A stretch of 64,000 bases of DNA from Escherichia coli (GTDB lineage: Bacteria; Pseudomonadota; Gammaproteobacteria; Enterobacterales; Enterobacteriaceae), in the NCBI RefSeq assembly GCF_044324875.1, contig NZ_CP172185.1. The stretch is one strand, 5' to 3'. The position numbers and the translations under genes are program-made. Below the pieces are notes generated by a model. That model had not been told where the DNA came from. It saw only the letters and a list, made by a program, of their open reading frames with translations, and made no database searches. Position 1 is the first letter of the stretch; every line of letters starts with the position of its first letter. Below, one piece after another: positions 25,243-26,603 of this stretch.

Positions 25243-26067
25243 CTTCACGAACAATATCGAACAACCGCGAACAAAGATCAACACGCTTTAATCATTATCA
25301 TTTTCCGGCTATCCGTCATGAAGCTGGTGGATGATCTGCGTGGTGATTTCCACCATTCAGAGCAGGGGCGGTCATCATGACCATGCCATAACAAAAACCC
25401 CATATTCGTGGTTTTTCTGTGTCGGGGCTATTCTGCTGTTGCCGTGCTGGTGGATATTCTCCGGTATGCGGCTCCCCATATCGGCATCAGGCCCACCAGC
25501 GTGAAGCGTTTTTCATTTTTCGCGGGTATAAAAAATCGATGGGGCGGGCAGTCCTGAAGACGTCAGGGTACAGAGATTTGACCCGCCCCTCCCTGTGAAT
25601 GAGCACAATAAGTAACCGAAGGCGGAATTCCGCCCTCGGTACTTACATATGAGAAACGATATTTCTTCCACCGATACCCTTTATTTGGGTATCGCGAGTA
25701 AGCCCCAAAATCTGGGTGTTACTCTTACTACCCAAACTACGGGTAGTTTCCGTAGTTTCATGGTCGAGTTGCAAATCTGCAACTCACCCACCAGCCAGCG
25801 CAATGTCGCATTATCAGTCCTCAGATGTGAGGGATGTAGCCAGCTTTTCCCCCAGTGGGGATTATCCAGTTACCGACGGTTTAACCGCCTGTGCCAGCAC
25901 AACGAAAGAATTTGCGGGTAGCTTTAAACTACTCACAACATCCCATCTTACAGGCCGTGCCTTTCTAACTTTTTACAATGCAATAAGTCAGGTAACGCTA
26001 TGCGTTCCACCGTGTACACCGCGCCAGTAAAACCCCCGGATTCGTGGTTTTCCTGAATATCAGGAAT

Positions 26068-26442
26068 CTACCGCCGCAACCGTTCCGGCTTCTTCCACTG
26101 ATAAGTGTTTTTCGCGCTCTCCCTCCGTTGTTGAGAACGGCGACGGTATGCCAGCAACTCAAGGACTCTGGTTCGTATGTTGCGCATATCCACGCCGTTA
26201 AGCTCAATACCATCACGGCGCATCACCTCAGCAACAACACACGCGTAATTTTCGGCTATCACGCTGTCCGGCTGCGTGGCCTCCTGTTCGCCAGCCTGCT
26301 GGCTGATTCCGGTAATACTGCGGATTATCCCGATCGCTTCGGTCTCGGTCATGGTCATGTCCTCCATAGTGATGGCGGGTCCTCCTTGTGGGGTGCCCTG
26401 CCACGGGGCGGGAGCATCGCGGAAAAAGGCTAGTTTTTGCAT
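26068..26442 (-). CDS. Hypothetical protein (124 aa), island cargo downstream of small terminase
   Basis: ORF with no family I can assign; the true start may be an internal Met. Confidence 0.4.
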   Translation of the reverse strand: MQKLAFFRDAPAPWQGTPQGGPAITMEDMTMTETEAIGIIRSITGISQQAGEQEATQPDSVIAENYACVVAEVMRRDGIELNGVDMRNIRTRVLELLAYRRRSQQRRESAKNTYQWKKPERLRR

Positions 26443-26603
26443 TTTTATTCGTTATCACCACCAATGCAATATATTGATATGACTTGATGTTTTATTTTTC
26501 GGTGTCGATTTCGATTGTTTTTTGTTCATCACTGACGCATAACGCCCACCAGCGCAACGCTGAAAGCCAGTCAGTAAACTGGCTTCGGTCATTGTGCACT
26601 ACG

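What the first reader, a model, noticed from the sequence alone, without database searches (positions are those of the whole stretch)
25390..26445. Island distal end: unknown 124-aa protein plus ~650-bp non-coding, hairpin-rich segment bracketed by 27-bp direct repeats
AAAACCCC(C)..ATTCGTGGTTTT(T)CCTG occurs at 25394-25420 and 26029-26055 and brackets a segment with no credible ORF but several strong hairpins (GGGGCGGGCAGTCCTGAAGACGTCAGGG...CCCGCCCC at ~25540-25592; a near-perfect 12-bp palindrome around GAATTC at ~25616-25640; GAGTTGCAAATCTGCAACTC at ~25767-25786). In satellites the region after the packaging genes is the usual accessory hotspot. This could be a structured ncRNA (possibly a partner for the FinO-domain protein) or a minimal interference module.
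Basis: seen in the sequence. Interest (0 to 1): 0.55.

Follow-up and report, generated by a model that had tools for sequence, protein, structure and literature searches.

The report
Satellite island's second phage packaging site
The "hairpin-rich non-coding segment" at the end of this E. coli phage satellite is mainly a copy of the DNA-packaging (cos) site of SfI/SfV-type phages, next to a conserved, unexplained hairpin array, so the island seems to carry packaging signals for two unrelated helper-phage families.

Summary
The window holds a 10,573-bp PICI-type phage satellite inserted between clpS and cspD.

- **First hairpin (GGGGCGGG…CCCGCCCC).** It lies inside an 83-bp block (25511-25593) that is 92-95% identical to the cos region of phages SfII, SfI, SfV, ST64B and phiP27. 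Window 25541-25550 is the exact reverse complement of the experimentally determined SfI cohesive end, TGCCCGCCCC.
- **A second cos.** The island also has an exact lambda cosN (27381-27392) upstream of its own full-length Nu1-like TerS, in the same orientation. It therefore carries two cos sites of different types.
- **27-bp "bracketing" repeats.** They are not chance, but they are not a bracket. Copy B lies in a decayed KilA-N gene fragment and copy A resembles the same motif; it sits at the edge of a 239-bp segment absent from related islands.
- **The "124-aa protein".** It is really a 94-aa gene of unknown function (phrog_1561).
- **GAATTC palindrome.** It looks like a terminator on the − strand.
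- **Remaining hairpins (hp123, 25668-25790).** They form a 123-nt array found in 13% of complete E. coli genomes and in no phage record. It always sits next to orf94 and is far more conserved than orf94. Its function is unknown, and I found no specific link to the FinO-domain gene.

The parts
25129..25146 (.). attL core of the island (ATGATAGATAACTATCAT). Its partner attR lies at 35702-35719, giving an island length of 10,573 bp.
   Evidence: An 18-bp direct repeat matching at 17/18 flanks the island. clpS lies to the left and cspD to the right.
25218..25242 (.). Tandem ATTAACTACACC repeats, probably integrase arm-type sites. They recur at 35559-35583 next to int.
   Evidence: A similar GACTACACC pair lies next to the att site of the cf-PICI locus L007. 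Their function is inferred.
25393..25419 (-). Copy A of the 27-bp repeat. On the - strand it reads QKNHEYGVF, a probable relic of a KilA-N-type coding motif.
   Evidence: repeat; a weak tblastn match to HK620 HkbK residues 49-62 (E = 0.18), so the relic reading of copy A is tentative.
25511..25593 (-). Complete cos region of the SfI/SfV/SfII/ST64B/phiP27 phage type. In phage orientation it reads on the - strand, with the TerS-proximal side at 25511-25540.
   Evidence: It is 92-95% identical to the phage cos regions, and the homology is confined to the phage HNH-terS intergenic region.
25541..25550 (-). The 10-nt cohesive-end sequence (GGGGCGGGCA; TGCCCGCCCC on the - strand), the predicted terminase cutting site.
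   Evidence: It is identical to the experimentally determined SfI cos, 5'-TGCCCGCCCC-3' (PMC3636060). It maps onto the annotated phiP27 cos-site. The SfI record ends exactly here.
25615..25640 (-). GC-rich palindrome centred on GAATTC. On the - strand it looks like an intrinsic terminator (11-bp stem, tail TACTTATTGT) lying between the island operon and cos.
   Evidence: In the fetched loci it is next to nearly every island copy of the SfI-type cos; L035 and L037 have a diverged palindrome without the cos. Terminator function is inferred from a consensus scan only.
25668..25790 (.). hp123, a satellite-specific array of four hairpins (h1 25672-25694, h2 25696-25724, h3 25734-25758, h4 25766-25785). 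Smaller hairpins flank it at 25652-25666 and 25798-25809. Function unknown.
   Evidence: - Fold z-scores of -6.9 and -6.7.
- Present in 708 of 5,426 E. coli genomes.
- 93-100% identical in the 36 IMG/VR loci found with an exact 19-nt seed from h3, and next to orf94 wherever the contig reaches far enough.
- Absent from phage records.
- Few compensatory changes.
- Not coding.
25816..26054 (-). Variable 239-bp segment absent from related islands. It ends in a frameshifted fragment of a KilA-N/antirepressor gene (about 25990-26054) that contains repeat copy B (26029-26055).
   Evidence: absent in L002. (about 87% identity to HK620 hkbK and 95% to plasmid KilAC genes). (translated match to HkbK residues 49-71 across a frameshift).
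It is a small helical protein with a basic C-terminus, in family phrog_1561. It is the last gene of the island operon and the constant neighbour of hp123.
   Evidence: - Family match and annotation.
- No Pfam match.
- 957 homologues, all unnamed.
- Only 42 clusters at 50% identity.
- AlphaFold model with three helices, pLDDT 78.7, and no significant PDB fold match.
26604..27188 (-). Island-encoded full-length lambda Nu1-type small terminase. It lies outside the finding but is part of the packaging module.
   Evidence: Residues 1-98 match lambda TerS in PDB 6hn7_B at E = 1.7e-40. It matches phrog_57. It is unrelated to the SfV-type TerS (E = 0.17).
27381..27392 (-). Exact lambda cosN (GGGCGGCGACCT), 190 bp upstream of the island terS, in the same orientation as the SfI-type cos.
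   Evidence: It is the only exact match in the 64-kb window.

Best explanation
The segment is the distal, cis-acting end of a 10.6-kb PICI-type phage satellite.

**The cos copy.** Its core is a faithful 83-bp copy of the cos region of SfI/SfV/SfII/ST64B/phiP27-type phages. Those phages package with a P27-family TerS, a TerL and an HNH endonuclease, and they leave 10-nt cohesive ends.

**Proposed packaging mechanism (inferred).**
1. A helper of that type triggers excision and replication of the island.
2. The helper terminase then recognises the mimic, cuts at 25541-25550, and packages island concatemers toward att and int.
3. This is the strategy of "carrying the helper's own cos".

**A second route (inferred).** The island also has an independent lambda-type cos (27381-27392) with its own cosB-like repeats and its own Nu1-type TerS. 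That would recruit the TerL of lambda-like helpers. The two cos sites point the same way, so the island appears equipped for two unrelated helper families.

**The rest of the segment.**
- A terminator-like palindrome probably ends the island operon before cos.
- Decayed KilA/antirepressor gene fragments account for copy B of the 27-bp repeat and probably for copy A.
- hp123 is a highly conserved, satellite-specific hairpin array that always accompanies orf94. My best guess is that it is the structured 3' end of the operon transcript or a protein-binding site. Its function is not established.
For: **Shown**
- 83 bp are 92-95% identical to phage cos regions. The homology starts and stops inside the phage HNH-terS intergenic region.
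- The 10-mer is identical to the experimentally mapped SfI cohesive end.
- The block is conserved in 327 complete E. coli genomes. In an evenly spaced sample of those hits, most extend into island-type flanks. It occurs in both Nu1-type PICIs and cf-PICIs.
- An exact lambda cosN lies 190 bp upstream of a full-length Nu1 homologue. Most related islands that carry a Nu1-type terS show the same arrangement (none was found in L001).
- Both cos sites are on the - strand.
- The island has int, alpA, a primase and an SSB, and no structural or lysis genes.
- The 239-bp indel and the KilA fragment.
- The palindrome matches a terminator consensus on the - strand.
- hp123 conservation, folding and linkage to orf94.

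**From the literature**
- E. coli PICIs are packaged through cos sites and hijack terminase (PMC6092414, PMC6739421).
- SaPIbov4 and SaPIbov5 carry a conserved copy of the helper cos (PMC5052747).
Against: - There is no experimental evidence that this cos copy is cut or used.
- The one genome with a 100% identical island (NZ_CP033635.1) has no second copy of this cos, so it holds no resident SfV-type helper.
- Many sister islands carry a substitution inside the 10-mer (GGGGCTGGCA or GGAGCGGGCA). The T allele was found in none of 117 phage-context copies sampled from IMG/VR. This could mean that some island copies are decaying relics.
- Island size also bears on this. Four units make 42.3 kb, which fits lambda and phiP27/SfII-sized heads but exceeds the SfV genome of 37 kb.
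- The roles of the palindrome and of hp123 rest on pattern scans and conservation only. In cf-PICI locus L007 a palindrome-like hairpin lies on the other side of hp123, so the "3' UTR plus terminator" picture is not uniform.
Confidence: 0.72

Rival explanations
1. One reading: the roughly 650-bp segment is a discrete module, bracketed by 27-bp repeats, that encodes a structured ncRNA. That RNA would partner the island's FinO-domain protein or act as a minimal interference module.
For: - The region folds far better than shuffled sequence.
- hp123 is strongly conserved, with a few compensatory changes in h0, h1 and h5.
- It is not coding.
- A terminator-like hairpin follows it on the - strand.
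Against: - The most prominent hairpin is a phage cos site.
- The repeats are coding-motif relics, and copy B belongs to a segment missing from sister islands.
- Only 5 of 5,426 genomes have the full "bracketed" unit.
- The FinO gene is present in just 2 of about 45 fetched hp123-bearing loci.
- There is no Rfam match even at E <= 10.
- No promoter is conserved on either strand.
Confidence: 0.15
2. The SfI-type cos copy is a non-functional relic picked up by recombination with an SfV-like prophage. It would have spread only because it is linked to the orf94-hp123 distal module.
For: - Substitutions inside the 10-nt overhang occur in many islands and were not seen in phages.
- There is no resident helper with this cos in the identical-island genome.
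- The surrounding region is a mosaic that holds other phage gene fragments (KilA, Roi/Ant).
Against: - The copied block is exactly the non-coding cos region, with no flanking HNH or terS coding sequence.
- It stays at 90-100% identity across hundreds of islands of different types and att sites, while the neighbouring sequence is variable.
- This window's copy has the phage allele with a perfect 10-mer.
- It points the same way as the lambda-type cos.
Confidence: 0.2
3. hp123 encodes a small protein on the + strand. The frame MRNDISSTDTLYLGIASKPQNLGVTLTTQTTGSFRSFMVELQICNSP… is open in almost all variants, and two independent 9-nt deletions keep it in frame.
For: - The frame is open in 20 of 21 variants.
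- The in-frame deletions occur in L049/L050 and in L052.
- Several third-position changes in the h4 region are synonymous.
Against: - pN/pS is 0.3-1.3 in that frame (0.5-1.3 in the four informative pairs) and does not differ from the other two frames.
- Variable sites fall 14: 6: 15 by codon position, so there is no clear third-position excess.
- No conserved start codon or ribosome-binding site exists across the classes.
- The C-terminal continuation differs completely between classes.
- RefSeq leaves it unannotated in most genomes.
- The "synonymous" sites are also loop or wobble positions of h4.
Confidence: 0.07

Closest known systems
cos site of Shigella/Salmonella/E. coli phages SfI, SfV, SfII, ST64B and phiP27 (HK97-like packaging with P27-family TerS, TerL and HNH; 10-nt cohesive ends)
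   Same: The 10-nt cohesive-end sequence is identical to that of SfI. Both flanks are 92-95% identical over 83 bp, including the inverted CCCGCCCC copy and the TTTCGCGGGTATAAAAAA stretch on the TerS side.
   Different: - The site sits in a 10.6-kb satellite, not a phage.
- No HNH gene or P27-type terS flanks it.
- On the distal side the phage HNH gene is replaced by the palindrome and hp123.
- Sister islands carry overhang alleles not seen in phages.
E. coli cos PICIs of the EcCICFT073 type (Fillol-Salom 2018, 2019; PMC6092414, PMC6739421)
   Same: - The architecture is the same: int, alpA, pri-rep, then a late module.
- A lambda-type cosQ/cosN lies just upstream of a wHTH packaging gene.
- More than one cos site per island has been described there (cos1 and cos2).
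   Different: - Both EcCICFT073 cos sites are lambda-like, and it encodes Rpp, a truncated TerS mimic that needs the phage TerS.
- This island encodes a full-length Nu1 homologue with the C-terminal region (RppC matches only at E = 0.008 over the DNA-binding domain).
- Its second cos belongs to an unrelated terminase family.
cos SaPIs SaPIbov4 and SaPIbov5 (PMC5052747), and satellite P4
   Same: Each is a satellite that carries a highly conserved copy of its helper's cos site and is packaged by the helper's own terminase. For SaPIbov5 the helpers are HNH-dependent cos phages.
   Different: They belong to different hosts and unrelated sequences. SaPIbov5 also remodels capsids with Ccm. No capsid-size gene was identified in this island.
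Capsid-forming PICIs (cf-PICIs, EcCIEDL933 type; bioRxiv 10.1101/2022.09.08.507074)
   Same: They share the distal module of orf94 plus hp123, similar integrase arm repeats and the same gene-zone layout. Some cf-PICIs (L022, L029, L040) also carry the extra SfI-type cos at the distal end.
   Different: cf-PICIs encode their own capsid, portal, HNH, TerS and TerL, and their own cos lies between the HNH gene and terS. This island has none of those genes.

Membership tests
SfI/SfV/phiP27-type cos site | 10-nt cohesive-end sequence TGCCCGCCCC (SfI) or CGCCCGCCCC (phiP27) | tested here: met
   Window 25541-25550 is the reverse complement of TGCCCGCCCC. It aligns to the annotated phiP27 cos-site.
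SfI/SfV/phiP27-type cos site | Conserved flanks on both sides of the cut site, as in the phage HNH-terS intergenic region | tested here: met
   83 bp at 92-95% identity to SfII, ST64B and 720R4, and 83% to phiP27. Columns on both sides of the cut site are invariant.
SfI/SfV/phiP27-type cos site | Cleavage by the cognate TerS/TerL/HNH complex and packaging of the DNA | not testable with these tools
   This needs transduction assays or end-mapping of virion DNA.
PICI (phage-inducible chromosomal island, Gram-negative type) | An integrase, AlpA regulator, primase-replicase and packaging/interference genes in one operon. About 10-15 kb in size, with its own att site and no structural or lysis genes. 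| tested here: met
   - int 34297-35535, alpA 33668-33964, primase 29429-31177, SSB, PerC, FinO, terS and orf94, all on the - strand.
- 10,573 bp between 18-bp att repeats.
- Inserted between clpS and cspD.
PICI | Induction, replication and high-frequency transfer by a helper phage | not testable with these tools
   There are no experimental data for this island.
Rpp (redirecting phage packaging) proteins | A truncated TerS-like wHTH protein of 135-153 aa that lacks the TerL-binding C-terminus and heterodimerises with the phage TerS | tested here: not met
   The island protein is 194 aa (180 aa in RefSeq) and, by my comparison with the Nu1 sequence recalled from memory, collinear with lambda Nu1 along its whole length. 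Residues 1-98 match the solved lambda TerS fragment at E = 1.7e-40, against E = 0.008 for RppC over 50 residues.
Lambda-type cos | A 12-nt cosN GGGCGGCGACCT with cosB between cosN and the terS start | tested here: met
   An exact match at 27381-27392 on the - strand, 190 bp before the terS start (lambda: 190 bp, per PMC9026076). Inverted AAAGGATCT/AGATCCTTT repeats lie in the cosB position. Binding of TerS to them was not tested.
Known structured RNA families (Rfam 15) | A match to a covariance model | tested here: not met
   Nothing at gathering score in 25100-26500. At E <= 10 there are only noise hits (archaeal snoRNA and TMV pseudoknot models).
Composite or bracketed mobile unit (direct-repeat-flanked insertion) | Both repeat copies conserved together at the ends of a unit that is present or absent as a whole | tested here: not met
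   Sister islands keep copy A and everything up to 25815 but lack 25816-26054, which holds copy B. Copy B clearly, and copy A more weakly, translates to a KilA-N motif.

The most novel reading that the evidence does not exclude
orf94 and hp123 form a previously undescribed, satellite-specific protein-and-site (or protein-and-RNA) module shared by PICIs with quite different packaging systems. It would act in hijacking, for example in packaging termination or end protection, in control of late-operon expression, or in helper interference. The island would pair this module with two heterotypic, co-oriented cos sites to hedge between lambda-like and SfV-like helpers.
Probability: 0.25. Interest if true: 0.65.

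Novelty: new variant of a known kind. Interest (0 to 1): 0.42.

Why it matters
- **Helper range.** If both cos sites work, one small island can be mobilised by two helper lineages whose small terminases are unrelated. One route would use its own TerS on a lambda-type cos. The other would be pure mimicry of an HNH-type cos. That would widen the known helper range of E. coli PICIs, for which only lambda/phi80-type packaging has been dissected in the papers I read. It would also help explain their spread.
- **Abundance.** In complete E. coli genomes this cos type appears to sit more often in satellites than in phages.
- **hp123.** It is present in about 13% of complete E. coli genomes, is more conserved than its neighbouring gene, and was absent from Rfam, from the phage collection and from the searchable literature. 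It is a well-defined target for RNA-seq and deletion analysis.
- **Practical use.** Synthetic PICI delivery vehicles depend on knowing every packaging signal in the chassis.

Tried and rejected
- **Rfam.** Gathering and permissive scans of the region found no family.
- **Coding hypothesis for hp123.** Rejected on pN/pS and codon-position counts.
- **hp123 as the cf-PICI cos.** Rejected. The cf-PICI has an SfV-like cos architecture directly upstream of its own terS.
- **hp123 as a partner of the FinO protein.** FinO is absent from nearly all hp123-bearing islands.
- **Covariation test.** It is under-powered. h2-h4 are almost invariant, and compensatory pairs occur only in h0, h1 and h5.
- **Attempts to add diversity failed.**
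  - The genome-contig scan with orf94 returned 5 distant homologues, none with hp123 downstream.
  - The metagenome scan with an invariant 16-mer gave mostly chance hits and about 27 real copies, all at least 80% identical.
- **orf94 function.** No Pfam match. PHROG family of unknown function. The AlphaFold model has no PDB match with E < 1.
- **Literature search by sequence strings.** Nothing found.
- **Locating EcCICFT073 in CFT073 by coordinates.** I fetched a lambdoid prophage at icd instead and did not pursue it.
- **Strand of hp123.** G·U-type substitutions point both ways. The terminator scan is positive on the - strand in the window but not in L007.
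Full report
**Context.** The window is E. coli chromosome, with the gene order ftsK … trxB, cydDC, aat, infA, tRNA-Ser, clpA, clpS | island | cspD, macB. An island sits between clpS (24724-25044) and cspD.
- It is bounded by an 18-bp direct repeat, ATGATA(G/A)ATAACTATCAT, at 25129-25146 and 35702-35719, which makes it 10,573 bp long.
- All of its genes are on the − strand: integrase, AlpA, a region without credible genes, DUF4222, primase, an 85-aa ORF, SSB, PerC, a ProQ/FinO-domain protein, a small terminase and a last small ORF.
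- This is the gene layout of Gram-negative phage-inducible chromosomal islands (PICIs) as described in PMC6092414 and PMC10111431.
- The finding covers the last gene and the non-coding DNA between it and attL.

**Observation check.**
- The 27-bp repeat lies at 25393-25419 and 26029-26055 and matches at 23 of 27 positions.
- The GGGGCGGG and CCCGCCCC arms lie at 25541-25548 and 25582-25589.
- The GAATTC palindrome lies at 25615-25640.
- The GAGTTGCAAATCTGCAACTC hairpin lies at 25766-25785.
- The region folds much better than shuffled sequence, with z between −6.7 and −7.6.
- The "124-aa" ORF is over-extended. Residues 31-124 match phrog_1561 from end to end, and RefSeq annotates 94 aa at 26068-26352. 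A GGAGGA lies 8 nt before that ATG.

**What the first hairpin is.** I compared 25380-26070 with 50,697 phage records. The only strong match is an 83-bp block, 25511-25593.
- It is 91.6-95% identical to Escherichia phages vB_EcoM-720R4 and SKA5, Shigella phage SfII and Salmonella phage ST64B. It is 94-96% identical to SfI and SfV over shorter matches, and 83% identical to phiP27, where the matched spot is annotated "cos-site".
- In these phages the block lies in the intergenic region between an HNH/homing-endonuclease gene and a P27-family small terminase gene, which is followed by TerL and portal.
- The homology stops inside that intergenic region on both sides.
- The 10-nt feature annotated in phiP27 maps to window 25541-25550, and the SfI record ends exactly at that position.
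- The SfI paper determined the cohesive end by sequencing virion DNA termini and reports 5'-TGCCCGCCCC-3' (PMC3636060). That is the exact reverse complement of window 25541-25550 (GGGGCGGGCA).

**A second, different cos.** The island's small terminase is unrelated to the SfV-type TerS (E = 0.17).
- It is a full-length homologue of lambda Nu1. Residues 1-98 match PDB 6hn7_B at E = 1.7e-40. By my comparison with the Nu1 sequence recalled from memory, the C-terminal part is collinear as well.
- I therefore looked for a lambda-type cos. An exact GGGCGGCGACCT, the only one in the window, lies on the − strand at 27381-27392. It is 190 bp upstream of the terS start, in the context GTTACGGGGCGGCGACCTCGCG.
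- Inverted AAAGGATCT/AGATCCTTT repeats occupy the place where lambda has R2 and R1 (the comparison with lambda cosB rests on PMC9026076, and on my memory of the lambda sequence).
- Most related islands with Nu1-type terS genes have the same exact cosN upstream, and some have two inverted copies. None was found in L001.
- Both cos sites in this island read on the − strand, so packaging from either would proceed in the same direction.
- The island protein is not an Rpp. Rpp proteins are 135-153 aa and lack the TerL-binding C-terminus, and RppC matches only weakly.

**How common the extra cos is.**
- The 96-bp cos query matches 327 of 5,426 complete E. coli genomes.
- In an evenly spaced sample of the hits, most extend into island-type flanks. 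Only the weakest few show the shorter coverage expected of phages.
- Among the fetched loci, the block occurs at the distal end of Nu1-type PICIs at several att sites. It also occurs in some capsid-forming PICIs (L022, L029, L040), which additionally have their own cos between the HNH gene and terS.
- In IMG/VR the phage allele GGGGCGGGCA was found next to phage TerS, TerL or HNH genes in 117 of 122 sampled places.
- An allele with a substitution inside the overhang (GGGGCTGGCA) was found in satellites in 12 of 15 places. The other three were unrelated chance matches, and none was in a phage context.
- This window has the phage allele.
- The one genome with a 100% identical island has no second copy of this cos, so it holds no resident helper of that type.

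**The 27-bp repeats.**
- Sister islands such as L002 align from 25050 to 25815 and again from 26055 onward, but they lack 25816-26054. Copy B therefore belongs to a variable segment, and copy A does not.
- The end of that segment (about 25996-26054) is about 87% identical to the KilA-N gene hkbK of HK620. A nearby stretch is 95% identical to plasmid KilAC antirepressor genes.
- Translated on the − strand, copy B reads IQENHESGGFT and then, after a frameshift, RGVHGGT. This matches HkbK residues 49-71.
- Copy A reads QKNHEYGVF, which is the same motif at weaker significance.
- The corresponding spot in the cf-PICI locus L007 holds a Roi/antirepressor fragment.
- The repeats are thus best read as relics of homologous coding sequence in a decaying, mosaic spot, not as the ends of a unit. 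Only 5 of 5,426 genomes have the whole arrangement.

**The other hairpins.**
- *Palindrome.* The GAATTC palindrome scores as a terminator-like site on the − strand, with an 11-bp stem, 8 G-C pairs and the tail TACTTATTGT. In the fetched loci it is next to nearly every island copy of the SfI-type cos; L035 and L037 have a diverged palindrome without the cos.
- *Distribution of hp123.* The block at 25668-25790 is four consecutive hairpins, here called hp123. It occurs in 708 of 5,426 complete E. coli genomes at 806 places, and it matches nothing in the phage collection.
- *Linkage to orf94.* In the 36 IMG/VR loci recovered with an exact 19-nt seed, it lies just downstream of orf94 wherever the contig reaches far enough. 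This holds whether the island has a Nu1-type TerS or a complete cf-PICI capsid and terminase module.
- *Conservation.* In those seed-selected loci hp123 stays 93-100% identical while orf94 falls to 70% amino-acid identity. A minority of genomic copies are about 79% identical.
- *Structure.* A further hairpin on the orf94 side has a variable sequence but a conserved stem. Compensatory changes occur in h0, h1 and h5, while h2-h4 are nearly invariant. This points to constraint on the sequence and not only on pairing.
- *Coding test.* A + strand reading frame is open through hp123, but pN/pS is about 1 and no different from the other frames.
- *Distant relatives.* orf94 homologues in other genera have no hp123 downstream.
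- *Databases and literature.* No Rfam family and no literature string matches.
- *orf94 itself.* It has no Pfam domain, belongs to a narrow family of 42 clusters at 50% identity, is predicted to form three helices, and has no significant structural neighbour.

**Mechanism.** The steps below are labelled as shown or inferred.
- *Shown:* sequence identity to a mapped phage cos, the presence and orientation of two cos types, an island-encoded Nu1-type TerS, and the conservation patterns.
- *Inferred from PICI and SaPI biology* (PMC6092414, PMC6739421, PMC5052747):
  1. After helper-triggered excision and replication, island concatemers are cut at whichever cos the helper's terminase can use.
  2. 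With SfI/SfV/ST64B/phiP27-type helpers, the helper TerS, TerL and HNH would act on the 83-bp mimic.
  3. With lambda-like helpers, the island TerS would bind island-specific cosB repeats and recruit the helper TerL.
- *Size considerations:* four island units make 42.3 kb. By my recollection of lambda packaging limits this fits lambda heads. It also matches the phiP27 and SfII genome sizes of 42.6 and 41.5 kb. The need for cos islands to be a fraction of the helper genome is stated in PMC10530653.
- *Palindrome:* it probably terminates the island operon before cos and att.
- *hp123:* I cannot assign a function. My best guess is the structured 3' end of the operon transcript or a binding site for orf94 or a host factor.

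**Comparison with known systems and novelty.**
- cos-packaged PICIs, satellite-encoded TerS proteins and satellites that copy the helper cos are all established.
- Two features appear in none of the papers I could read. One is the combination, in a single E. coli island, of a lambda-type cos with its own full-length TerS and a second, co-oriented cos from the unrelated HNH/P27-TerS lineage. The other is the orf94-hp123 module.
- I classify the finding as a new variant of a known kind.

Noticed in passing
window 27189-27440 (- strand): A complete lambda-type cos lies upstream of the island's Nu1-like terS. It has an exact cosN GGGCGGCGACCT at 27381-27392 and island-specific inverted repeats AAAGGATCT/AGATCCTTT where lambda has R2 and R1. 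This suggests an island-specific cosB/TerS pair.
   Followed up: partly
window 31670-33657: About 2 kb inside the island, between the DUF4222 gene and alpA, has only long, junk-looking ORFs. Relatives annotate an oversized "Icd-like" protein there (L001 17517-18950). There is no Rfam hit at E <= 1 and no notable repeat. Only the last ~95 residues of the 475-aa ORF look like a real protein.
   Followed up: partly
L002 (NZ_CP024815.1) 11000-23214: Strain CREC-629 carries two PICIs in tandem at the same clpS/cspD att site. Each has a capsid, a decoration protein, terS, orf94, hp123 and the SfI-type cos (T allele).
   Followed up: no
L049 4116-5134 and L050 616-1634: A related PICI is inserted into a prophage major capsid gene (the helper-embedded type). 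It carries an abortive-infection-family gene between a diverged hp123 (79% identity) and the island end. The distal end is therefore an accessory hotspot in some relatives.
   Followed up: no
L014, L023, L025, L038 (IMG/VR loci): Some related islands have two exact lambda cosN sites in inverted orientation a few hundred bp apart, one of them between terS and orf94. This recalls cos1 and cos2 of EcCICFT073.
   Followed up: no
L002, L024, L026, L030, L034, L040, L051, L052, L054-L067 (cos block): A satellite-specific allele of the 10-nt cohesive end, GGGGCTGGCA, was never seen next to phage terminase genes in the IMG/VR sample. A second allele, GGAGCGGGCA, occurs in L022 and L029. It is unclear whether these are functional.
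   Followed up: partly
L007 8780-8835 (- strand): The cf-PICI's own putative cos lies between a small ORF and terS: GGGGTGGGGGGCG…TTCAGGAC…CCCGACCCCGCC…ATTTTTATGCACGGGAA. It has the same architecture as the SfI-type cos but a diverged sequence.
   Followed up: no
window 21940-22203: Next to tRNA-Ser(GGA) there is an RtT RNA match (21940-22074, 48.6 bits) and a single isolated CRISPR-DR4 repeat match (22176-22203, - strand, 50.1 bits) with no array. The latter is probably a REP-like false positive.
   Followed up: no
window 25218-25242, 25247-25274 and 35559-35583, 35608-35625, 35682-35697: Several short repeat families (ATTAACTACACC, CGAACAA…CGAACA) recur in direct orientation at both ends of the island, near the att cores. 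They are probably integrase or excisionase arm-type sites.
   Followed up: no
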